Below are positions 1 to 9,895 of a DNA stretch of 9,895 nt, in pieces. The first letter of the stretch is position 1, and the number at the start of each line of letters is the position of its first letter. Position numbers and translations under genes: made by a program. The notes below the pieces were generated by a model, which made no database searches, was not told the origin of the DNA, and saw nothing but the letters and a program-made list of their open reading frames with translations. The DNA lies in assembly GCF_003334355.1 (NCBI RefSeq), contig NZ_QOWP01000057.1. One strand, 5' to 3'. The stretch is from Escherichia coli. Its GTDB lineage: Bacteria > Pseudomonadota > Gammaproteobacteria > Enterobacterales > Enterobacteriaceae.

Positions 1-116
1 TGAATCTGAGGCAGCACCTGGCACGGCTGGGACGGAAGTCGCTGTCGTTCTCAAAATCGGTGGAGCTGCATGACAAAGTCATCGGGCATTATCTGAACAT
101 AAAACACTATCAATAA
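1..116 (+). CDS. insB: IS1 transposase InsB, C-terminal portion (5' end outside window)
   Basis: Frame starting at 3 translates to [37 protein letters not shown] with stop TAA at 114-116, which is the recalled InsB C-terminus. No start codon in window. Confidence 0.8.
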
Positions 117-131
117 GTTGGAGTCATTACC
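1..131 (+). mobile_element. IS1 insertion sequence, right-end fragment (element continues upstream of window start)
   Basis: Positions 1-131 match, from memory of the IS1 sequence, the InsB C-terminal coding region followed by the terminal inverted repeat (...CACTATCAATAAGTTGGAGTCATTACC ending at 131). Flanking DNA starts at 132. Confidence 0.85.
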
Positions 132-698
132 CAACTAATCTTATCTATATATCATGTGATATGTTCTGTAACAAGTAAAATCAACATAAAAAATTCAGCA
201 AAATTTAATATTCGCTCAACTAGCCGTCTCACATATGACATTATTAGTCAACTCCATTTGCCACAAAATGGCTATTTCATGGAACGCAGTAATTTCTTAG
301 TGGCTATTATCATGCTAATTCTTAGGTCCCTAGCGATTATTCCTGGCTGGTTCGTCAGTTTAGACCATGAGATTGTTACATTCCTTTTTATCATGGAGAT
401 ATGGGGGAAAGCAGGAAACGATTTTTTCATCTGCATCCGTTGGTAAATATGGCTTTGGTCACTACGACTTAAACCTTCCTCAATCACAGCTGTTCGCCGG
501 GCGATACGGCAAACAAACTAAGTGAGGCATCACCCTGAAAACACCAACATCAACAAGCCTCTCCAGATCGGCTTCAGGAGTGACCAGTTACAAGCCACAA
601 ACCAGGAAACATATTTCATGATGAGAATTATGCTAAGCCTGATGGCGGGTAAACACTTATTTTCACCAAGCTCACTGAGTTAGCTTACAAAGCTTCCC

Positions 699-717
699 TT
701 ATTTAGACTCTAAATAA
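699..717. repeat. Perfect 9-bp inverted repeat TTATTTAGA-C-TCTAAATAA, followed by a second IR AGATATT-N6-AATATCT at ~733-752
   Basis: Read directly from sequence. Lies in the AT-rich nanC-upstream regulatory region; candidate protein-binding palindrome. Confidence 0.4.
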
Positions 718-878
718 ATTATTTATAAAACAGATATTTAAAAGAATATCTTTAGTTTTTGAAGACCACCGCAAGTGTTCGTCTGGCTTCACATGGCATC
801 TTCCTCTTAGAAAAAGATCGACATATTTTGTGACACGAATTGCAAATCTGGTTTTGTTGTATGGATTGCGTGATTTTT

Positions 879-906
879 GATCTGGTATAACAGGTATAAA
901 GGTGCA
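879..906. promoter_or_regulatory. NanR-type operator: GGTATA-ACA-GGTATA-AA-GGTGCA repeats immediately preceded by a GATC Dam site
   Basis: GATC at 879-882; GGTATA at 884-889 and 893-898; degenerate third repeat GGTGCA at 901-906. Tandem GGTATA hexamers are the recognised NanR binding motif, and such a site is known in the fimB-nanC intergenic region. Confidence 0.6.
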
Positions 907-1157
907 CCGCGATAGACAATGAGACAGGGCATCTTGCAATCTATGGCAAACATCACTTCAGTTCTTTCTCATCGGGTGATGAAAACGCACTTCAGTCTGA
1001 AAGGAATATGAAAATGAGATCAACAAACACTCTATTTTATGACTCTGGGTAAAATGGATTGAGTAAGTGATATAGCTTACGAACATTCAAATCAATTAAA
1101 CATCAGAAGAGATTTTATACTCAGGTATTTAATCTGGCTCTCTGTTTATTTAAATAA

Positions 1158-1178
1158 TGTGAAAAGAGAATTTTCACA
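1158..1178. repeat. Perfect 8-bp inverted repeat TGTGAAAA-N5-TTTTCACA about 145 bp upstream of the nanC start
   Basis: Read directly from sequence; candidate operator in the nanC promoter region. Spacing does not fit a canonical CRP site. Confidence 0.4.
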
Positions 1179-1321
1179 GGAGACCTTATACAAAAAATAT
1201 AAAATAAGCTACCCATTGCCAAAGACACTATAAGCCTGGCAAAAAATATTACACAACATAAATGCTAATTGTTTATGCGGGCTTTGTATTGCTTTCTGTA
1301 TCCTACAAATGAGTGAAATTT

Positions 1322-2038
1322 ATGAAAAAGGCTAAAATACTTTCTGGCGTATTATTACTGTGCTTTTCGTCACCATTAATTTCTCAGGCTGCGACACTGG
1401 ACGTACGTGGTGGATATCGTAGCGGAAGCCATGCCTATGAGACTCGACTCAAAGTCAGTGAGGGATGGCAAAATGGATGGTGGGCAAGCATGGAAAGTAA
1501 TACCTGGAATACCATTCATGATAATAAAAAGGAAAATGCCGCACTCAATGATGTTCAGGTTGAAGTTAATTACGCGATTAAACTTGATGATCAATGGACG
1601 GTGCGCCCGGGAATGTTAACGCATTTTAGCAGCAACGGCACCCGCTACGGACCCTACGTAAAACTGTCCTGGGACGCGACAAAAGATCTTAATTTTGGCA
1701 TTCGCTATCGTTACGACTGGAAAGCTTACCGACAACAAGACTTATCCGGTGATATGTCTCGTGATAACGTTCATCGTTGGGATGGATATGTCACTTACCA
1801 TATTAATAGTGATTTCACCTTCGCATGGCAAACGACGCTATACAGCAAACAGAACGATTATCGCTATGCAAACCATAAGAAATGGGCGACGGAAAATGCA
1901 TTTGTTCTACAATACCATATGACGCCCGATATTACGCCATACATAGAATATGACTACCTTGACCGTCAGGGTGTTTACAACGGCAGAGATAATTTATCGG
2001 AAAACAGTTATCGCATTGGTGTGTCATTTAAACTGTAG
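1322..2038 (+). CDS. nanC: N-acetylneuraminic acid outer-membrane channel NanC (KdgM-family porin), 238 aa
   Basis: ORF-track frame 1313-2038. Chosen start is the ATG at 1322 (MKKAKILSGVLLLCFSSPLISQA..., signal peptide ending AQA-A); the track start at 1313 is an upstream GTG. Sequence recognised as E. coli NanC (YjhA). Stop TAG 2036-2038. Confidence 0.93.
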   Translation: MKKAKILSGVLLLCFSSPLISQAATLDVRGGYRSGSHAYETRLKVSEGWQNGWWASMESNTWNTIHDNKKENAALNDVQVEVNYAIKLDDQWTVRPGMLTHFSSNGTRYGPYVKLSWDATKDLNFGIRYRYDWKAYRQQDLSGDMSRDNVHRWDGYVTYHINSDFTFAWQTTLYSKQNDYRYANHKKWATENAFVLQYHMTPDITPYIEYDYLDRQGVYNGRDNLSENSYRIGVSFKL

Positions 2039-2057
2039 TAGACAGGAGACAGTCACA

Positions 2058-3164
2058 ATGAATAAAACAATAACGGCGCTTGCTATCATAATGGCTTCAT
2101 TTGCCGCAAACGCGTCTGTATTACCGGAAACTCCTGTGCCATTTAAAAGTGGTACCGGAGCAATTGATAACGACACTGTCTACATTGGTTTAGGTAGCGC
2201 AGGTACAGCATGGTACAAGCTGGATACACAGGCCAAAGATAAAAAATGGACAGCGTTAGCTGCATTCCCTGGTGGACCGAGAGATCAAGCAACCTCTGCA
2301 TTTATTGATGGTAATCTGTATGTGTTTGGCGGCATTGGCAAAAACAGCGAGGGCTTGACTCAGGTATTTAATGACGTACACAAATACAACCCCAAAACCA
2401 ATAGCTGGGTTAAATTGATGTCGCACGCGCCGATGGGCATGGCGGGCCATGTGACTTTTGTACACAACGGCAAGGCTTATGTTACTGGCGGTGTTAACCA
2501 GAATATCTTCAATGGCTATTTTGAAGATCTCAACGAAGCTGGAAAAGATTCAACCACTATAGATAAAATCAACGCCCACTATTTTGACAAAAAAGCAGAA
2601 GATTATTTCTTCAATAAGTTTCTGTTGTCTTTTGATCCCTCTACACAGCAATGGAGTTACGCTGGCGAATCTCCCTGGTACGGAACGGCTGGTGCGGCGG
2701 TTGTGAATAAAGGTGATAAAACCTGGCTTATTAATGGCGAAGCCAAACCAGGATTGCGAACGGATGCCGTATTTGAACTTGATTTCACCGGTAATAATTT
2801 AAAATGGAATAAGCTTGCTCCCGTCGCATCACCAGATGGCGTCGCTGGCGGTTTTGCAGGCATGAGCAATGACTCACTTATATTTGCCGGAGGGGCCGGA
2901 TTCAAAGGTTCACGAGAAAATTACCAGAACGGTAAGAACTATGCGCATGAAGGCCTGAAAAAATCATATAGCGCTGATATTCATCTTTGGCATAACGGGA
3001 AATGGGATAAATCGGGCGAATTATCGCAAGGTCGGGCCTACGGAGTATCATTGCCCTGGAATAATAGTTTATTAATTATTGGCGGTGAAACTGCAGGCGG
3101 CAAAGCGGTGACGGATTCAGTTTTAATTTCTGTGAAGGATAATAAAGTCACAGTACAAAACTAA
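2058..3164 (+). CDS. nanM: N-acetylneuraminate mutarotase NanM (Kelch-repeat beta-propeller, periplasmic), 368 aa
   Basis: ORF-track frame 1950-3164. Chosen start is the ATG at 2058 preceded by AGGAGA (2044-2049); the track start at 1950 overlaps the nanC 3' end. MNKTITALAIIMASFAANASV... signal peptide; recognised as NanM (YjhT). Confidence 0.93.
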   Translation: MNKTITALAIIMASFAANASVLPETPVPFKSGTGAIDNDTVYIGLGSAGTAWYKLDTQAKDKKWTALAAFPGGPRDQATSAFIDGNLYVFGGIGKNSEGLTQVFNDVHKYNPKTNSWVKLMSHAPMGMAGHVTFVHNGKAYVTGGVNQNIFNGYFEDLNEAGKDSTTIDKINAHYFDKKAEDYFFNKFLLSFDPSTQQWSYAGESPWYGTAGAAVVNKGDKTWLINGEAKPGLRTDAVFELDFTGNNLKWNKLAPVASPDGVAGGFAGMSNDSLIFAGGAGFKGSRENYQNGKNYAHEGLKKSYSADIHLWHNGKWDKSGELSQGRAYGVSLPWNNSLLIIGGETAGGKAVTDSVLISVKDNKVTVQN

Positions 3165-3170
3165 CGCTTC

Positions 3171-3192
3171 AGGGCCCCGGTAAAGGGGCCTT
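3171..3192 (+). other. GC-rich stem-loop (AGGGCCCC / GGGGCCTT, loop GGTAAA) in the nanM-nanS intergenic region
   Basis: 8-bp stem read directly from sequence, starting 7 nt after the nanM stop. No clean downstream T-tract, so it looks more like an intra-operon attenuator or RNA-stability hairpin than a strong terminator. Confidence 0.4.
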
Positions 3193-3228
3193 GCTATCAA
3201 TTTGTCATTTGTATTACGCGAAAATTAT

Positions 3229-4209
3229 ATGAACGCAATAATATCGCCCGATTATTACTATGTTCTTACCGTTGCTGGTCAGTCTAATGCCATGGCGTAT
3301 GGCGAAGGACTACCATTACCGGACAAGGAAGATGCGCCTCATCCCAGAATTAAACAATTAGCGAGATTTGCGCATACACATCCCGGAGGCCCGTCATGTC
3401 ACTTTAACGACATTATTCCACTGACTCACTGCCCACACGATGTTCAGGATATGCAGGGTTATCACCATCCTCTGGCAACGAATCATCAAACACAGTACGG
3501 CACCGTTGGCCAGGCACTACATATAGCACGGAAATTACTGCCCTTTATTCCTGATAATGCAGGGGTTCTCATCGTTCCGTGTTGCCGTGGCGGATCGGCT
3601 TTTACCGCGGGCAGCGAAGGGACATATTCAGAACGGCACGGAGCCAGCCATGATGCTTGTCGTTGGGGAACGGATACTCCGCTATACCAGGATTTAGTCA
3701 GCAGAACGCGAGCCGCACTGGCAAAAAATCCGCAGAACAAATTCCTCGGCGTATGCTGGATGCAAGGCGAATTTGACTTAATGACCAGTGACTACGCGTC
3801 ACACCCTCAACACTTTAATCATATGGTTGACGCCTTTCGTAGGGATCTAAAACAATACCATTCTCAGCTTAATAAAATTACTGACGCGCCGTGGTTTTGC
3901 GGCGATACCACCTGGTACTGGAAAGAAAATTTCCCTCATGCGTATGAAGCTATTTATGGCAATTATCAAAATAATGTTCTAGCCAATATTATTTTCGTCG
4001 ACTTCCAGCAACAAGGTGCAAGAGGACTGACGAACGCGCCTGATGAAGATCCGGACGATTTAAGCACGGGATATTACGGTTCAGCGTACCGGTCACCGGA
4101 GAACTGGACGACGGCACTGCGAAGCAGTCATTTCAGCGCGGCAGCCCGTCGAGGGATTATTTCTGACAGGTTTGTAGAAGCAATTTTGCAGTTTTGGCGC
4201 GAAAGGTGA
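3229..4209 (+). CDS. nanS: 9-O-acetyl-N-acetylneuraminate esterase NanS, 326 aa
   Basis: ORF-track frame 3202-4209. Chosen start is the ATG at 3229 (MNAIISPDYYYVLTVAGQSNAMAYGEG...); the track start at 3202 is a TTG. Recognised as NanS (YjhS). Stop TGA 4207-4209. Confidence 0.9.
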   Translation: MNAIISPDYYYVLTVAGQSNAMAYGEGLPLPDKEDAPHPRIKQLARFAHTHPGGPSCHFNDIIPLTHCPHDVQDMQGYHHPLATNHQTQYGTVGQALHIARKLLPFIPDNAGVLIVPCCRGGSAFTAGSEGTYSERHGASHDACRWGTDTPLYQDLVSRTRAALAKNPQNKFLGVCWMQGEFDLMTSDYASHPQHFNHMVDAFRRDLKQYHSQLNKITDAPWFCGDTTWYWKENFPHAYEAIYGNYQNNVLANIIFVDFQQQGARGLTNAPDEDPDDLSTGYYGSAYRSPENWTTALRSSHFSAAARRGIISDRFVEAILQFWRER

Positions 4210-4219
4210 GCGTTCATTA

Positions 4220-4488
4220 ATTTGATTTATTCGCATCCATCAGCGCTTTTAACTCCTCCGGCGTAAACGGTGGTTTGCGTCGGTGCAACATCGCATGGCA
4301 ATTAGGGCACACAGGAAGTAAAAAAACATATGAGATCAAGGTAATATATCTTCGCTTGCAGGCTTGAACCGCAGAAAATTTGCGAGCATGATCGCAATTA
4401 TTTCACTGCCAGGGATATCAATGGCTTCCAGTAAATCGCTGACGAGCCTTTTTTTGCTCTCCAGCAAATCCGTAAGCAGCGTGACCCA
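4220..4488 (-). pseudogene. HNH endonuclease remnant (C-terminal CxxCH zinc-finger region), frameshifted, no start codon
   Basis: - strand frame with codons at 4402..4220 ends ...LISYVFLLPVCPNCHAMLHRRKPPFTPEELKALMDANKSN* (stop 4217-4219). An adjacent - strand frame (4488..4339) gives the protein-like VTLLTDLLESKKRLVSDLLEAIDIPGSEIIAIMLANFLRFKPASEDILP. The two segments are in different frames and both are bounded by stops upstream. Confidence 0.4.
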
Positions 4489-4857
4489 TTATTTCGCAAA
4501 CATGTATTACGCGCTTATAACTACCAGTGCGCAATATGTAGCTTTAATATTTGTTACGGCAACTCCACCGTCTCACTGGAAGCGACACATATAAAATGGA
4601 AACAACATGGTGGCCCTTGTGAAATTCCCAATGGCCTGGCGCTTTGCGCGATACATCATAAAGCCTTTGATAAAGGAACGATTGGCCTGGATGAAAATAT
4701 GCGGGTACTGGTATTGGATGCGGTAAACGGCGGAGAGATCATTGAGAGGTCATTCTGGGATTTTGACGGAAAAATTATTGCGTTGCCACAGGTGCGTAAA
4801 AATTACCCTTTTGAGGGGGTTGTAGAGTGGCATCGGAAAGAGTTTTTTAGGGGGTGA
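4435..4857 (+). pseudogene. HNH_2-type endonuclease remnant (N-terminally truncated; in-frame TAA at 4432-4434)
   Basis: + frame 4435-4857 translates to ...QQIRKQRDPLFRKHVLRAYNYQCAICSFNICYGNSTVSLEATHIKWKQHGGPCEIPNGLALCAIHHKAFDKGTIGLDENMRVLV...EFFRG*. This matches the recalled HNH_2 signature (FR..vL.aY..CAiC ... LEAaHI ... NGLaLC..HH.aFD.G). No plausible start codon or RBS; the upstream frame is closed by stops. Confidence 0.5.
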
Positions 4858-4860
4858 GGT

Positions 4861-5169
4861 AACCATTATATATCTTTCACCTAGAATTTTAAATGTAATA
4901 GATAAAGTATTTTCTGACACCGAAAGTATTATTTATGAGTACATAGCCATAAATCAATTTTAAAATCTCAATATAAAACACGTTTACAAATATTCTAGTC
5001 AGAGTAAATATATATTCATTATAAGAGAATCCAATTATTAACCAATCGACATTACAAATTAAAAAATAATTAGCATGTTGAACTGTACATTAATTTATAT
5101 ACATAGTAAATTTACATCTATTCATGATATAATTATCGTGATATCAATTCATTAATCAGGAAAATCATA
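4861..5169. other. Strongly AT-rich intergenic block (by eye well under 30% GC)
   Basis: Dense A/T runs and TA-rich words read directly from sequence, contrasting with the nanCMS genes. Typical of horizontally acquired DNA and promoter islands. Confidence 0.7.
5125..5133 (+). promoter_or_regulatory. Candidate extended -10 promoter element TGATATAAT upstream of the 5170 ORF
   Basis: TG-n-TATAAT at 5125-5133, about 37 nt upstream of ATG 5170. No good -35 at 17 bp spacing; the AT-rich context makes chance matches likely. Confidence 0.3.
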
Positions 5170-5472
5170 ATGGAATTATTAAATACTTATGATGATAAAG
5201 AAACAGCTGAAATATTTTTTGAAAGAATAGAAGGAGAGAAAAGATTAGCAAGTGAACGAGATGCTACGGAAACAGTCTATAACCTCTTCGGGCAACCAAC
5301 CTGGAAAAATTTATATCTTCTTGATATGTTTAACCTAAAAGAATTACAAGGGATTATAGAGTGTAGAAAAAATGGACAGTCTTTCGACCAGGAACGACAC
5401 CGGGAAATAATAAAAATGCTTGAATATGCAGCAAAATCGTTTGACTTAATTATTCCTGCACATTGGCGATAA
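5170..5472 (+). CDS. Hypothetical small protein (100 aa), function unknown
   Basis: ORF-track 5170-5472. AGGAAAA 5 nt upstream of the ATG; followed by a strong hairpin terminator. Sequence (MELLNTYDDKETAEIFFERIEGEKRLASERDATETVYNLFGQPTWKNLYLLD...) not recognised as any family I know. Confidence 0.5.
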   Translation: MELLNTYDDKETAEIFFERIEGEKRLASERDATETVYNLFGQPTWKNLYLLDMFNLKELQGIIECRKNGQSFDQERHREIIKMLEYAAKSFDLIIPAHWR

Positions 5473-5474
5473 TA

Positions 5475-5507
5475 TCTGCTCCATATCTCACAGAGATATG
5501 GAGCAGA
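5475..5507. terminator. Bidirectional intrinsic terminator between convergent genes
   Basis: 15-bp perfect stem (5475-5489 pairs with 5493-5507; TCTGCTCCATATCTC / GAGATATGGAGCAGA) with 3-nt loop ACA. Flanked by A/T-rich tracts on both sides, between the 5170-5472 ORF stop and the 5519 stop of the - strand gene. Confidence 0.7.
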
Positions 5508-5518
5508 ATCATATTTAT

Positions 5519-8500
5519 TTACTCGCTAACCATCTTACTGAATAATTTCTCCAGATACAATGAGCCAGTATCCTCAATAAAAAGCACATTTCTGGCTTCC
5601 AGATTCTCTTTTGAATCAGGTACGTTTACTAAGTCAACATAACAAGTTTCAGAAACAATAAATGCACTTAATGATAAGTTATCATCCGATAATTTATGTT
5701 CAAGATTCTTGATTTCTTTATATAATCCGAACTTTGGATCATCAAGATTAAGATTGCGGATGCCTTTTGGATCAATAAGACTTAACCATTGTTTACCACT
5801 TTTATCATCGACTAACCACAATAAGAAATCCGGATAAAAATTACCCGCAGTAGCAAAGCCCAGGCCTCTATTTTTAGAATCCGCATTTCTTAGCAGATAT
5901 AAACTTTTATCACCAATAATTTTCTGCCCTTTTGTCGAATCAACAAAAGACTGAAGATCATGGACAAAAGTAATCTCACTTGATGCACCCAGTGTTGCCG
6001 GTCGCATTTTTAGCGGTATGTTGGCATTTTTTTCAATCGAAAGAAGTGGATAATAGAGATGTTTATCAAAGGTAATAGCAACCATCCCGGATGCACTCCA
6101 GGATTTTGCTTTACCGATTTCGCCGTCGATGACCAATTGTTGTAATTGTTCCAGCCGACTGGCATATGCCAACCCATCATCAGTTTCTTCGATCTCGAAA
6201 TGGTACATTTTGATCATACCAGGATCATCTTCTTTCACCTGCGTGACTTCATAAAACTGACCTTCATAAGCATTTTTCAATGTGTTGTAAAAGCGATCAG
6301 TATAATCAGTCAGCAGACGAAGCATAATATCTTCCTGCTTAGCAATATCTGCATATTGCTTAATCTCAAGCTCTGAAGCTGGAATCAAAAGGGTATACCA
6401 ACTATTTCCGATCTTTGTCTTACCGGTACAAAAGTCGATCAAACGTTGTTTATCCACACGTAAATTTGACCAGCCGCGTTGTAGTTTATAATTCTGAATG
6501 GCGAGATAAAGCCGATCAAAATCAAACGCACTAATGATTTTATAATCTAACTTCGCTTCATTACGCACGTTAACCGGAGTATTGTCCCCTTTTCTGCTGG
6601 TATCAATCGACTCAAGTTTCGGGTATAGGTCCAGCTTAATATGCGGCTGCTTAATTTTCCCCTGAAAATCAGCAGGAACTTCATACAATTCGGGAAAATA
6701 GACACGTTTAAAGCCGAGTCTTTGATTATCTTTATAACCATCTTTAAGCTTAAGTGTTTTAAGCCTGGTTGCTGGCATATTTGGCCGAGTTTCAAAATTC
6801 AGCTCAAGGATCTCGTCACTTGGCGTAATCCCTTCATCTTCCAGGTATTGTTTAAAGGTTGCCATGTAATCGGCACGTACACCGAATACATTCAGTGTCT
6901 CTAATTTTTCCAGATGCAACCCTTTCGGACGCTCACCGGGTGTACTGCGTTTCAAAGAATAATTGCGACCTTTAAGGCGAACGCCACGACCAAATAACTG
7001 AATGATCTGTGAACCTTCTCCACGGCCCATATTGAGCAATCCCATCGTTGAGACGCGCCAACTGCTCCAGCCTTCAGTAAATTTTCGCGAGCCGATCAAA
7101 ATATGTAGTTGCGAGTCTTTGTCATTTAACGTATGAAAGAGTGACTTCGCAAAATCATCTCTCTGATAATCAAATGTCGTATCCTCTTCACACATTTTGT
7201 AAAGAGACGGTGCATCACCAATATTGATAAGACCAAACGGTTCGGCCTCACCAACCTGTAATGCCAGTTCACCTTTACTGCCTATTAAATTCAGAACTCG
7301 CAGTCTCTGACCTGAGTGAGTGGTGTTAAACAAACGAGAAAGAATATCTGCGTAGATATCTTCCGGGCCGTTCATTAGTGCGGTAAAGCGATTTTCAAAA
7401 ATGTTACGCTCTTTGGTATCAAGAATTCGCGCTTTATTTTCAATGAGATCTTTAATCCACGATTTTGCCTGCGATTCATGATTTAAAAACCATGCTAAAA
7501 AACGCAGTACTGCGTGAATGTCTGAATCTTCACCACTTACGGTGTTACCGACAAAAACCCATAGCGGTTTTTCGATATTAAATTCATTTAATTTTTCTTT
7601 ATTCTTATTGAATAAATATTGTTGCTGATAAAAGCTGAGCAAACACGCGGTAAAATACTCATACCGACGCTCATCTTTTTTATCCTCTTCAGGATTAAGG
7701 TTAAGAATCAGTGATTCTTTACCATAACCATCCTCATAGAAGAATTTATAGGAGTAATCGAACAGAATCGATTTCCCATAGACTTCTCGTGTCGCCTGAA
7801 TACGCGCATCACGTTGTTCTTCGCTGGTTAATGCTATTTGCGCTAACTGTTCTTCGCTCAGTTTACCTAAGGCAGTTGTTTCAAAAAGCAGCTTTGCTTT
7901 TTTCTTCTGAATTTCTGTTTCAACTGCCTCAACATTATTGCCACCGGCCACTGCCTGGCCAAAAGTTGCTGAATATTCAAACGCAAATCCGTCACGCGTT
8001 AATTTGTCACGACGGCGCATCCAGGCACCAGCAGCACTTCCTGTGCCTTTATGCCCTTCATCAATCAGGACCAGATTGTTGCCTTCAAATGCCTCAACGG
8101 CAACAGTTTTGTCACCCATTTCATCGGCAAGTTTATTGATATCAATAACTTCAATCGTGCCTTTAAATGGCGCGGATTTACTCTTATCGAATAACTGGTA
8201 TTGGGTAAATCCTGAGTTTTCCAGTTCATCTAAATGTTGCTTCGATAGGCGTTCATCCGGCGTAAGCAGGATGATTTTATCCGGGTAATGATGGCTATTA
8301 CCGTTCTGGAAATAATGTAAATATTGCAAAATATTGACATGTAATAGCAGTGTCTTACCAGAACCAGTAGCGTTCCAGTATGCCAGTTTATTCAAATCAT
8401 CCAGAACGTATGATTTGAACTGATTAGCCCGGTCTTTTGCTGTTTTATCATTTTCAGCATTGTATGCTGCCAGCTCGTTATTTAGCCCATCGAGTAATTG

Positions 8501-8899
8501 CTGTTTACGGTTGAAGTACCAGTCCAGGTAGATCTCGGTAAACAGAAGCGACAAGTACTGAAAATATTTCATGTTCAGCACTGTGTCTTCTTTACGATTA
8601 CGGTGCTCGGTTATCTGCTGCCAGTGCTGCACGATATTGAGATCGTAACGACGCAGTTCATCGAGATCGATAAGATCGACCTCGAATAAATAGTTACTCA
8701 GCTCATGGAAGAATAAGCTTTGGCCATCTTCATGGATGCCTTCAAAGCGATCCTCGCCTAACCGATTCTTCAAACCTTGCAATGTGCCATCTTTAAAAAA
8801 ATGGAACATAAAGCGGTTTAAAACCAACTGCTTATGAAAGCTCAGCTTGCTGTTAGTCTCTTTTTTAACTGCTTTACCGGTGGTCGGTTTTTTAGCCAT
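5519..8899 (-). CDS. SF2 helicase with C-terminal PD-(D/E)xK nuclease motif; Type III restriction Res-like subunit (1126 aa)
   Basis: Intact ORF. Strong RBS GGAGGAGG 7 nt upstream of the ATG at 8899. Walker A ATGSGKT (aa 177-183; 8351-8371), motif II LIDEGH (aa 278-283; 8051-8062), motif VI QLFGRGVR (aa 634-641; 6977-7000), and C-terminal YPDFLLWLV...LIDPK (aa 1022-1045; 5765-5833) fitting PD-x(n)-(D/E)xK. Helicase-then-nuclease order matches Type III Res. Confidence 0.8.
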   Translation of the reverse strand: MAKKPTTGKAVKKETNSKLSFHKQLVLNRFMFHFFKDGTLQGLKNRLGEDRFEGIHEDGQSLFFHELSNYLFEVDLIDLDELRRYDLNIVQHWQQITEHRNRKEDTVLNMKYFQYLSLLFTEIYLDWYFNRKQQLLDGLNNELAAYNAENDKTAKDRANQFKSYVLDDLNKLAYWNATGSGKTLLLHVNILQYLHYFQNGNSHHYPDKIILLTPDERLSKQHLDELENSGFTQYQLFDKSKSAPFKGTIEVIDINKLADEMGDKTVAVEAFEGNNLVLIDEGHKGTGSAAGAWMRRRDKLTRDGFAFEYSATFGQAVAGGNNVEAVETEIQKKKAKLLFETTALGKLSEEQLAQIALTSEEQRDARIQATREVYGKSILFDYSYKFFYEDGYGKESLILNLNPEEDKKDERRYEYFTACLLSFYQQQYLFNKNKEKLNEFNIEKPLWVFVGNTVSGEDSDIHAVLRFLAWFLNHESQAKSWIKDLIENKARILDTKERNIFENRFTALMNGPEDIYADILSRLFNTTHSGQRLRVLNLIGSKGELALQVGEAEPFGLINIGDAPSLYKMCEEDTTFDYQRDDFAKSLFHTLNDKDSQLHILIGSRKFTEGWSSWRVSTMGLLNMGRGEGSQIIQLFGRGVRLKGRNYSLKRSTPGERPKGLHLEKLETLNVFGVRADYMATFKQYLEDEGITPSDEILELNFETRPNMPATRLKTLKLKDGYKDNQRLGFKRVYFPELYEVPADFQGKIKQPHIKLDLYPKLESIDTSRKGDNTPVNVRNEAKLDYKIISAFDFDRLYLAIQNYKLQRGWSNLRVDKQRLIDFCTGKTKIGNSWYTLLIPASELEIKQYADIAKQEDIMLRLLTDYTDRFYNTLKNAYEGQFYEVTQVKEDDPGMIKMYHFEIEETDDGLAYASRLEQLQQLVIDGEIGKAKSWSASGMVAITFDKHLYYPLLSIEKNANIPLKMRPATLGASSEITFVHDLQSFVDSTKGQKIIGDKSLYLLRNADSKNRGLGFATAGNFYPDFLLWLVDDKSGKQWLSLIDPKGIRNLNLDDPKFGLYKEIKNLEHKLSDDNLSLSAFIVSETCYVDLVNVPDSKENLEARNVLFIEDTGSLYLEKLFSKMVSE

Positions 8900-8901
8900 T
8901 C

Positions 8902-9873
8902 TTAAACCTCCTCCGCAAACATCAGGTTCAAGAATTCAGGTTCGATCTGGCGGATTTTCAGGCTACGAACAATCTCGCCGTCTTCTTCATCAACGGTAAA
9001 GGCGGTAGGTAAGTTATGATCGCCATTGATATAGATAACGTCGAACGTATTTTCTTTTGCATATAAATCGAATCTGTTGGCATATTTATTCAATTCTTCA
9101 TAGCCGATCTTGTCGCAATCGCGCCACAGAATAAGGGTACGCTCGCCAGTTGGTAGCGTTCCTTCAACACGCACATAGCCACGTTCGATATTGGATTCGA
9201 TGGATTTCACATGTAAGCCAATGAGATAGTTGAAAGTTTCAACTAAATCGATGTTCTTACGCTCAGTAGCACCTGCGGAATCCGTTGTAACATCCATTTC
9301 GTAGTTAAATGGTTTTTTGAAATTATCAGTATTGAGTAGTGAGCCTTTGCTTTCTGTTTCAAGCATATAGTTAAGAACATAATCCTCTCGAATTTCTTTA
9401 AGATCGTCGAAAAGATCCTTTGTTGTTTCAGTACGTTTCAGTGCTATATTGTTAAGAGTATCCTCAAAACTCTCAATTTTAATATATTTTATTAATGTCT
9501 GCTCAACTGGATTACAGCTTAGTGCTTTTCCATACTTCCAGTCAGTTGTAAAAATAGCTTTTTTTACTCTAGGCAAGGTAACAGAATAAAAATATTCACC
9601 TTGTTCGACCAAGCTAAATTTTCGAAAACCATTATCATCCCTATTCATATCTACCACTGCATGCCCTGTAGTACCAGAGCCAGCAAAATAGTCTAAGAAA
9701 TGAGCATACTTCGAATTACTAAGCGACTCTAAACATTCCTTAACCGCATAAATACTTTTTGGAAAAGAAAAATTAATCTGAGTCACGTTAAACAAACTAT
9801 TTAATAGTTCCGAACCATTGAACCGCCCCGGGTTTCCTGGAGAGTGTTTTATCTGTGAACTCAGGCTGCCAGA
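8902..9873 (-). CDS. Type III Mod-like N6/N4 DNA methyltransferase, C-terminal portion (AdoMet motif I plus C-terminal domain); reading frame interrupted upstream
   Basis: Open frame 9873..8902 contains FSFPKS...LDYFAGSGTTGHAV (motif I at 9667-9693) followed by RKFSLVEQGEYF, the pattern seen in beta-class and Type III Mod methyltransferases. The stop TAA overlaps the res RBS with only a 2-nt gap to the res ATG. In-frame stop at 9874-9876; a different frame is open 9800-9895. The catalytic DPPY-type motif is not in the window. Confidence 0.65.
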   Translation of the reverse strand, partial: SGSLSSQIKHSPGNPGRFNGSELLNSLFNVTQINFSFPKSIYAVKECLESLSNSKYAHFLDYFAGSGTTGHAVVDMNRDDNGFRKFSLVEQGEYFYSVTLPRVKKAIFTTDWKYGKALSCNPVEQTLIKYIKIESFEDTLNNIALKRTETTKDLFDDLKEIREDYVLNYMLETESKGSLLNTDNFKKPFNYEMDVTTDSAGATERKNIDLVETFNYLIGLHVKSIESNIERGYVRVEGTLPTGERTLILWRDCDKIGYEELNKYANRFDLYAKENTFDVIYINGDHNLPTAFTVDEEDGEIVRSLKIRQIEPEFLNLMFAEEV

Positions 9874-9895
9874 TCATCGTTTCCGATGGAAGCAT

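What the first reader, a model, noticed from the sequence alone, without database searches (positions are those of the whole stretch)
5519..9895. Translationally coupled Mod-like methyltransferase and 1126-aa helicase-nuclease: a Type III R-M-like defence module in AT-rich acquired DNA
Two - strand genes are separated by 2 nt (mod stop TAA 8902-8904, res ATG 8897-8899), with the res RBS GGAGGAGG inside the mod 3' end. The upstream gene carries a methyltransferase AdoMet motif (DYFAGSGTT). The downstream gene has SF2 helicase motifs I, II and VI plus a C-terminal PD-(D/E)xK-like motif. That is the Type III mod-res arrangement, but the Res-like protein is longer than usual and the whole block is visibly more AT-rich than the adjacent nan genes. 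Whether it is a working restriction system, a variant such as a standalone helicase-nuclease, or a decaying one cannot be decided from sequence alone.
Basis: partly seen in the sequence, partly recalled or inferred. Interest (0 to 1): 0.75.

Follow-up and report, generated by a model that had tools for sequence, protein, structure and literature searches.

The report
IS-truncated Eco86II-type Type III restriction remnant
This is the tail end of an already characterised kind of E. coli Type III restriction-modification system (the Eco86II family): its nuclease-helicase gene is intact, but an insertion sequence has cut off its methyltransferase gene, so it is almost certainly a dead remnant.

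Summary
Two minus-strand genes lie 2 nt apart, a GGAGGAGG ribosome-binding site sits in the end of the upstream gene, DYFAGSGTT is present, and the SF2 helicase and PD-(D/E)xK motifs are conserved across the family.

The upstream "mod" gene does not run off the window. Homology to intact loci stops at 9818, and 9819-9895 is the end of an IS1203-like IS3-family element. Only residues 731-1034 of a 1034-aa Mod remain. The catalytic DPPY motif (around residue 500) and the target-recognition region are gone.

The 1126-aa Res differs by 1 residue from E. coli 042 Res. It is 98.4% identical to the Res at the same chromosomal site in E. coli NCTC86. That locus fits the published Eco86II system: Type III, m4C, site GAGCC, cut about 25 bp 3' of the site, with an extra helicase-like gene 5' of mod. 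Intact relatives carry SNF2-like ATPase, Mod (~1030-1110 aa) and Res (~1125 aa), so the "long" Res is normal for this family.

Verdict: a known family, here as a decaying remnant. Because Type III Res depends on Mod, restriction and methylation are almost certainly lost. Interest is low.

The parts
5519..8899 (-). res: an intact 1126-aa Type III Res-like helicase-nuclease. Walker A is at 177-183, DEGH at 280-283, motif VI at 634-641, and PD...DPK at 1023-1045.
8907..8914 (-). Shine-Dalgarno sequence GGAGGAGG for res, inside the last codons of mod. A 2-nt gap (8900-8901) separates the mod stop from the res ATG.
   Evidence: Read directly from the sequence. The same 2-nt spacing occurs in NCTC86, Salmonella and Yersinia loci. 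In distant loci the genes overlap by 4 nt or are 1 nt apart.
8902..9818 (-). 3' remnant of mod: residues 731-1034 of the 1034-aa E. coli 042-type allele, plus the stop codon. It keeps AdoMet motif I (DYFAGSGTT) and the conserved C-terminal domain. It lacks motif IV (DPPY, around residue 500 of the intact protein) and the target-recognition region.
   Evidence: PADLOC MTase_III PDLC03646 covers model positions 764-1057 only. Homology to intact loci ends at 9818.
9819..9895 (-). Right end of an IS3-family IS1203-like insertion sequence. The terminal repeat starts TGAACCGCCCCGGG on the + strand at 9819. The transposase 3' end has its stop at 9861-9863 and is oriented like mod and res.
   Evidence: The 81-nt query matches 24,655 places in 4068 E. 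coli genomes, annotated there as IS3-like IS1203 family transposase.
5475..5507 (.). Perfect 15-bp hairpin between the convergent res and orf100 genes; a likely bidirectional terminator.
5170..5472 (+). orf100: a conserved 100-aa gene of unknown function, convergent to res. It travels with the cassette in Enterobacterales. Elsewhere it borders other defence cargo, so it is probably an island-backbone or boundary gene rather than a subunit of the system.
   Evidence: Searches show co-location at 59-60% identity in Salmonella and Yersinia. Searches show other contexts. It has no hit in any family library.

Best explanation
Window 5519-9818 is the distal part of a chromosomal Eco86II-family Type III restriction-modification cassette.

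In intact relatives the operon reads SNF2-like ATPase, then Mod (a beta-class N6/N4 methyltransferase of about 1030-1110 aa), then Res (about 1125 aa, an SF2 ATPase plus a C-terminal PD-(D/E)xK nuclease). Mod and res are translationally coupled.

By established Type III mechanism, a Mod dimer recognises a short asymmetric site and methylates one strand. Res uses ATP to switch the complex into a sliding state and cuts about 25 bp 3' of an unmodified site when two inversely oriented sites communicate. For Eco86II the published site is GAGCC with m4C methylation.

In this strain an IS1203-like IS3-family element abuts mod codon 730. The 5' 70% of mod is therefore disrupted or deleted. That part includes the DPPY catalytic motif and the target-recognition region.

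Steps shown here: res is intact, and mod is truncated by the IS.

Steps inferred: Type III Res depends on Mod for site recognition and activity. The locus should therefore neither methylate nor restrict, and should be a recently inactivated remnant. Any residual res transcription would have to come by read-through from the IS transposase, which points the same way.
For: Res is a Type III Res:
- It hits the PADLOC Type III models strongly.
- The helicase and nuclease motifs are conserved.
- The predicted topology around E975, PD1024 and DPK1045 is alpha-beta-beta-beta-alpha-beta.
- Some NCBI records name this exact protein 'type III restriction endonuclease subunit R'.

Link to Eco86II:
- NCTC86 carries SNF2 (963 aa), Mod (1040 aa) and Res (1126 aa) at the same site next to nanS.
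- The window's Res is 98.4% identical to that Res.
- PMC8259958 says NCTC86 has one Type III system, with an extra helicase-like gene 5' of mod, methylating GAGCC to m4C and cutting about 25 bp 3' of the site.
- The paper's 5.9-kb mod clone fits a mod gene of about 3.1 kb.

Truncation of mod:
- There is an in-frame stop.
- Homology ends at 9818.
- The IS end is identified.
- The remnant equals residues 731-1034 of 042 Mod, and DPPY lies upstream of that.
- The same junction occurs in three other assemblies.
- Two complete genomes show IS1-mediated deletions of the mod 5' part with res left intact.

Conserved Mod-Res pairing:
- It is seen in distant loci and in Salmonella and Yersinia.
Against: - The window is an entire draft contig that ends inside the IS. 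I cannot see whether the 5' part of mod and the SNF2 gene survive beyond the IS (simple insertion) or are deleted.
- Equating the NCTC86 locus with Eco86II rests on the paper's description, not on a locus tag or a sequence given in the paper.
- Res shows no sequence similarity to EcoP15I Res in the PDB, even with a profile.
- By fold, Res is no closer to EcoP15I Res than to other SF2 enzymes.
- The dependence of this particular Res on Mod is inferred from classical Type III enzymes.
- The window's Mod allele (042 type) has a different catalytic and recognition core from M.Eco86II, about 25% identity over residues 390-900. Its former specificity and methylated base are unknown.
Confidence: 0.9

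Rival explanations
1. One reading: this is a working two-gene Type III R-M module whose mod gene simply continues beyond the window.
For: Res is intact. It is tightly coupled to the upstream ORF, which carries AdoMet motif I.
Against: The mod frame is closed by a stop at 9874-9876. The last 77 nt are IS1203-like sequence, not mod. The remnant lacks DPPY and the recognition region.
Confidence: 0.02
2. The orphan Res, possibly together with the 297-304-aa Mod C-terminal fragment, keeps a Mod-independent or trans-complemented activity and is retained for that reason. Examples would be a stand-alone helicase-nuclease, or a partner of a Mod encoded elsewhere.
For: Res is intact with a single substitution relative to E. 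coli 042. Res stays intact after independent IS-mediated truncations of mod in at least three lineages. The IS transposase reads toward res and could supply transcription. The C-terminal ~140 aa of Mod are conserved across alleles, which fits a Res-contact role.
Against: Near-identity of Res and the flanking DNA to intact loci (99.94% over 9.8 kb) means the events are recent, so an intact res is expected under neutrality. No evidence for a good start or ribosome-binding site for the remnant was found. Promoter-like sites are not above chance. Classical Type III Res is inactive without Mod (established knowledge; PMC8259958 introduction). All 167 E. coli genomes with this mod family have just one copy.
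Confidence: 0.06
3. The parent cassette is a DISARM class 1 variant rather than a Type III R-M system, because its first gene is DrmD-like.
For: The SNF2 gene of the intact locus hits DISARM DrmD models best: NCBIfam DrmD_b at 2e-199 and PADLOC DrmD at 658 bits.
Against: The score of 665 is below the curated cutoff of 950. No DrmA, DrmB (DUF1998) or DrmC genes are present in the 042 or NCTC86 loci. The methyltransferase is a beta-class Type III Mod, not DrmMI. Eco86II cuts like a Type III enzyme, and no peptides of the helicase-like protein were found in the partially purified active enzyme preparation (PMC8259958).
Confidence: 0.02

Closest known systems
Eco86II (E. coli NCTC86), the three-gene m4C Type III R-M subgroup of Murray et al. 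2021 (PMC8259958)
   Same: It occupies the same chromosomal site next to nanS and has the same gene order. Res is 98.4% identical. The Mod N-terminal ~390 aa and C-terminal ~140 aa are nearly identical. The mod-res gap is the same 2 nt. The same 100-aa downstream gene is present.
   Different: The window's Mod allele (042 type) diverges through the catalytic and recognition core, about 25% identity over residues 390-900, so GAGCC/m4C cannot be assumed for it. Here the gene is cut by an IS at codon 730. The SNF2 gene is not visible in the window.
E. coli 042 locus EC042_RS25695-25705 (SNF2-related protein, DNA methyltransferase, DEAD/DEAH helicase)
   Same: It is 99.94% identical over window 1-9818. 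Res differs by one residue (A969T). The Mod remnant is an exact match to residues 731-1034.
   Different: E. coli 042 has the complete 1034-aa Mod and the 963-aa SNF2 gene. The window has an IS1203-like element at that point.
Classical Type III enzymes EcoP15I and EcoPI
   Same: Both have the mod-then-res operon and a beta-class Mod; the intact 042 allele matches 4zcf_A at E 1e-12. Res is an SF2 ATPase with a C-terminal PD-(D/E)xK nuclease. Cleavage about 25 bp 3' of an asymmetric site is reported for Eco86II.
   Different: Mod here is about 1030-1110 aa, against 644 aa for the EcoP15I chain. Res shows no detectable sequence similarity to EcoP15I Res and only generic SF2 fold similarity. A frequent third SNF2-like gene is present. 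The characterised member methylates m4C rather than m6A.
DISARM class 1 (DrmD plus DrmMI plus DrmA/B/C)
   Same: The SNF2-like first gene of the parent cassette is most similar to DrmD models.
   Different: The hit is below the curated DrmD cutoff. There is no DrmA, DrmB or DrmC. The methyltransferase is of a different class.

Membership tests
Type III R-M, Res subunit | N-terminal SF2 helicase/ATPase core with Walker A, DExH and motif VI | tested here: met
   ATGSGKT 177-183, DEGH 280-283, SAT 310-312 and QxFGRGxR 634-641 are invariant or nearly so in 62 homologues. Pfam ResIII hits residues 167-293. Foldseek places the model among SF2 enzymes, including EcoR124I HsdR and EcoP15I Res.
Type III R-M, Res subunit | C-terminal PD-(D/E)xK endonuclease domain | tested here: met
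Type III R-M, Res subunit | Detectable homology to established Type III Res proteins | tested here: inconclusive
   The PADLOC REase_III model PDLC03654 hits at 2316 bits over its full length, and a 98.4%-identical protein sits in the Eco86II-type locus. However, Res has no NCBIfam hit and no PDB sequence hit to EcoP15I Res, even with a profile.
Type III R-M, operon | res lies immediately downstream of a beta-class mod gene in one operon | tested here: met
   There is a 2-nt gap with the Shine-Dalgarno sequence inside mod. The same arrangement occurs in the 042, NCTC86, Salmonella and Yersinia loci and in three distant metagenomic loci.
Type III R-M, Mod subunit | Complete beta-class methyltransferase: catalytic motif IV (DPPY), target-recognition domain, then AdoMet motif I (FxGxG) | tested here: not met
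   The intact allele has IDPPY around residue 500 and FAGSGTT around residue 770. The window keeps only residues 731-1034, that is motif I but not motif IV or the recognition region.
Type III R-M, activity | ATP-dependent cleavage about 25-27 bp 3' of an asymmetric site, requiring inversely oriented unmethylated sites, plus hemimethylation by Mod | not testable with these tools
   This is reported for Eco86II: GAGCC, m4C, cuts about 25 bp 3' of the site (PMC8259958). It has not been measured for this allele or strain.
Eco86II-like three-gene subgroup | An additional SF2/SNF2-like ATPase gene directly 5' of mod | not testable with these tools
   The gene is present in the 042, NCTC86, Salmonella and Yersinia loci and in one distant locus at 46% identity. 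In this strain the region lies beyond the IS at the contig end.
DISARM class 1 | DrmA helicase plus DrmB (DUF1998) core, with DrmD and DrmMI | tested here: not met
   The SNF2 gene of the parent locus scores 665 bits against a DrmD_b cutoff of 950. No DrmA, DrmB or DrmC genes are in the intact loci. Mod hits only Type III and Type II methyltransferase models.

The most novel reading that the evidence does not exclude
The intact orphan Res, perhaps with the conserved C-terminal Mod fragment, may be retained after repeated independent IS-mediated loss of the mod 5' half because it has a Mod-independent role. It would be transcribed by read-through from the IS. That would make these loci a stand-alone helicase-nuclease derived from a Type III system rather than junk.
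Probability: 0.05. Interest if true: 0.5.

Novelty: already known. Interest (0 to 1): 0.12.

Why it matters
It matters little as a discovery. The family is in REBASE-derived models, one member has been characterised biochemically, and this copy is broken.

It is still a clean example of how Type III systems decay. IS elements remove the mod 5' end, which silences both activities safely because Res depends on Mod. An intact res is left behind, and naive annotation could count that as an active defence system.

The open questions lie in the intact relatives, not in this window:
- the role of the SNF2-like third gene;
- the specificity of the non-Eco86II Mod alleles;
- the meaning of the 100-aa gene that borders variable defence cargo.

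Tried and rejected
- I scanned genome contigs for the IS/mod junction to find a closed source genome and got no match. No complete E. coli genome has the junction either.
- I suspected that K-12 yjhR was a remnant of this res gene. K-12 shares no DNA homology beyond about window 4380, so I dropped the idea.
- Sequence searches of Res against the PDB, with a single sequence and with a 62-sequence profile, found nothing. NCBIfam found nothing for Res or for the Mod remnant.
- I considered DISARM membership because of the DrmD-like hit and rejected it.
- I considered orf100 as a fourth subunit and rejected it after finding it next to unrelated defence cargo.
- Literature searches for the specificity of the 042-type Mod allele, or for a function of the third helicase, found only PMC8259958.
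- A promoter scan inside the mod remnant was not above chance.
Full report
**Observation**

The window contains an intact 1126-aa ORF on the minus strand at 5519-8899. Directly upstream the sequence reads GCGGAGGAGGTTTAAGAATGGCT. The upstream stop TAA is at 8902-8904, two bases follow, then the ATG at 8897-8899. GGAGGAGG at 8907-8914 lies inside the end of the upstream gene. The upstream frame contains DYFAGSGTT. GC content is 0.394 for this block and 0.453 for nanC-nanM-nanS.

The upstream frame is not open to the window edge, however. It has a stop at 9874-9876.

**Where the window comes from and where mod ends**

Window 1-9818 is 99.94% identical to E. coli 042. In 161 complete E. coli genomes one match covers at least 80% of window 4300-9895, and in the genomes listed every match stops at window 9818. 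The last 77-81 bases occur 24,655 times in 4068 E. coli genomes, where they are annotated as IS3-like IS1203 family transposase. In a reference copy the transposase CDS ends 46 nt inside the element and points toward the end.

In the window the element therefore starts at 9819, with TGAACCGCCCCGGG on the plus strand. Its transposase stop is at 9861-9863 (frame shown), and it reads in the same direction as mod and res.

The window is an entire draft contig, QOWP01000057.1 of GCA_003334355.1. It is bracketed by IS1 (window 1-131) and this IS. Three other assemblies break at the same junction. No complete E. coli genome and no GTDB representative carries the junction. What lies beyond the IS is therefore unknown.

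**The intact parent locus**

In E. coli 042 the genes are an SNF2-related protein (963 aa), a DNA methyltransferase (1034 aa) and a DEAD/DEAH helicase (1126 aa). The intact Mod has Pfam N6_N4_Mtase over residues 491-790, with IDPPY around residue 500 and FAGSGTT around residue 770. It matches solved Type III Mods: Mbo45V at 6.6e-24, H. pylori Mod at 1e-19 and EcoP15I Mod at 1e-12.

The window's remnant translates to exactly residues 731-1034 of this protein. It keeps motif I and the C-terminal domain. It has lost the catalytic motif IV and the recognition region.

**Res**

PADLOC's REase_III model PDLC03654 matches Res end to end at 2316 bits. Pfam sees only a weak ResIII/DEAD hit at residues 167-313. 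NCBIfam and PDB sequence searches see nothing.

The family is large. There are 7925 clusters at 90% identity, and 780 representative clusters at E<=1e-30. Full-length members among the best 150 are typically about 1000-1140 aa, so 1126 aa is normal for the family.

In 62 homologues at 33-59% identity the following residues are conserved:
- invariant: A177-T-G-x-G-K182-T183, D280-E281-x-H283, S310-A-T312, Q634-x-F-G-R-G-x-R641, E975, P1023-D1024 and P1044;
- D1043 is D in 57 and E in 5;
- K1045 is K in 51 and H in 11.

**Link to a characterised enzyme**

Murray et al. 2021 (PMC8259958) describe Eco86II from E. coli NCTC86.
- It is a Type III system that methylates GAGCC to m4C.
- It cuts about 25 bp 3' of its site.
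- It has an additional helicase-like ATPase gene 5' of mod. That gene is not needed for methylation, its peptides were absent from the active enzyme preparation, and it is co-located with Mod and Res in more than 500 genomes.
- NCTC86 has a single putative Type III system.

The NCTC86 genome carries SNF2 (963 aa), Mod (1040 aa) and Res (1126 aa) at the same chromosomal site next to nanS. The paper's 5.9-kb mod clone fits a 3.1-kb gene. The window's Res differs from the NCTC86 Res at 18 of 1126 positions. I infer that this locus is Eco86II; the paper gives no locus tag.

The 042-type Mod shares the N-terminal ~390 aa and C-terminal ~140 aa with the NCTC86 Mod. It is only about 25% identical between residues 390 and 900. 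Its specificity cannot be assumed to be GAGCC.

**Conservation of the architecture**

Salmonella and Yersinia carry SNF2 (963 aa), Mod (1048-1105 aa) and Res (1125 aa) with the same 2-nt mod-res gap, in unrelated chromosomal contexts. Three distant metagenomic loci, with Res at 33-47% identity, all have a 1020-1110-aa N6_N4_Mtase gene directly upstream of res. One of them also has an SNF2 gene at 46% identity, and two lack it. Mod-Res is therefore the core and the SNF2 gene is a frequent accessory.

The SNF2 protein is closest to DISARM DrmD models but falls below the curated cutoff (665 bits against 950). No DrmA, DrmB or DrmC genes are present. I reject DISARM membership.

**Mechanism and state of this copy**

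Shown here: res is intact, and mod is cut at codon 730 by an IS.

Inferred from established Type III biology: Mod provides both site recognition and methylation, and Res is inactive without it. This locus should therefore neither methylate nor restrict.

The same route to loss recurs in other strains.
- In strains CH10508 and KN13-4 an IS1 abuts mod remnants of 1668 and 1305 nt. Unrelated DNA lies beyond the IS, and res is intact.
- Other genomes have IS1B or ISKpn26 inside mod.

By analogy an IS-mediated deletion is plausible here but is not shown. The transposase points toward res, so read-through transcription is possible (inference). Promoter-like sites in the remnant are not above chance.

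**Verdict**

The system belongs to a known, characterised family and is here a decaying copy. Interest is low.

Noticed in passing
window 5170-5472 (+); L014 12426-12728; L015 12429-12731; L016/L017 10001-10303; L018 10001-10303: A 100-aa gene with no family hit sits convergent to res. It accompanies the SNF2-Mod-Res cassette in Salmonella and Yersinia (59-60% identity, next to an integrase in Yersinia). In Aeromonas and Dongshaea the same gene family (1141 clusters) borders quite different defence cargo: an Hma-like cluster with a PARIS-like pair, and a PglZ cluster. It looks like an island backbone gene marking a variable defence-cargo slot.
   Followed up: partly
window 4217-4321 and 4435-4857: These are remnants of an HNH endonuclease gene and of a 'phosphorothioated DNA-binding restriction endonuclease' (Type IV, SBD-HNH). 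That gene is intact (290 aa) in NCTC86. A deletion of about 430 bp shared with E. coli 042 removes its N-terminal half, so a second defence gene is decaying in the same islet.
   Followed up: partly
window 1-131 and 9819-9895: The window is a whole draft contig bounded by an IS1 end on one side and an IS1203-like IS3-family end on the other. The assembly broke at repeats on both sides.
   Followed up: yes
L012 5001-7381; L013 5001-7020; one search hits H65, H66, H73, H76-H79, H105, H107: Recurrent, independent IS-associated disruption of mod in E. coli, with res left intact. IS1 sits at remnants of 1668 nt and 1305 nt, other truncation points are seen, and IS1B and ISKpn26 are inserted in mod. 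About 10 of the 60 listed genomes have a broken mod.
   Followed up: partly
L001 13603-16707 versus L004 31610-34732; The mod gene exists in several allele classes in E. coli, with gene lengths of 3105, 3123, 3174 and 3120 nt. The ends are conserved, but the central half is highly divergent, including the catalytic region and not only the recognition domain. Only the Eco86II-type allele has a published specificity.
   Followed up: partly
L001 16728-19619; L010 539-3568: The SNF2-like third gene is closest to the DISARM DrmD_b model but below its cutoff. It is conserved at 46% identity over its full length in a distant metagenomic Type III-like locus and absent from two others. Its function is still unknown according to the only paper found.
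   Followed up: partly
window 5475-5507: A perfect 15-bp inverted repeat with a 3-nt loop lies between the convergent res and orf100 genes; a likely bidirectional terminator.
   Followed up: no
Res residue 1045 (window about 5765-5767): The lysine of the nuclease (D/E)xK motif is replaced by histidine in 11 of 62 homologues, while the rest of the motif stays invariant.
   Followed up: no
window 4213-4380 versus L002 (K-12): E. coli K-12 shares the nanCMS genes, but its homology to the window ends at about 4380. K-12's yjhR pseudogene region is unrelated DNA, so this site downstream of nanS holds different cargo in different strains.
   Followed up: partly
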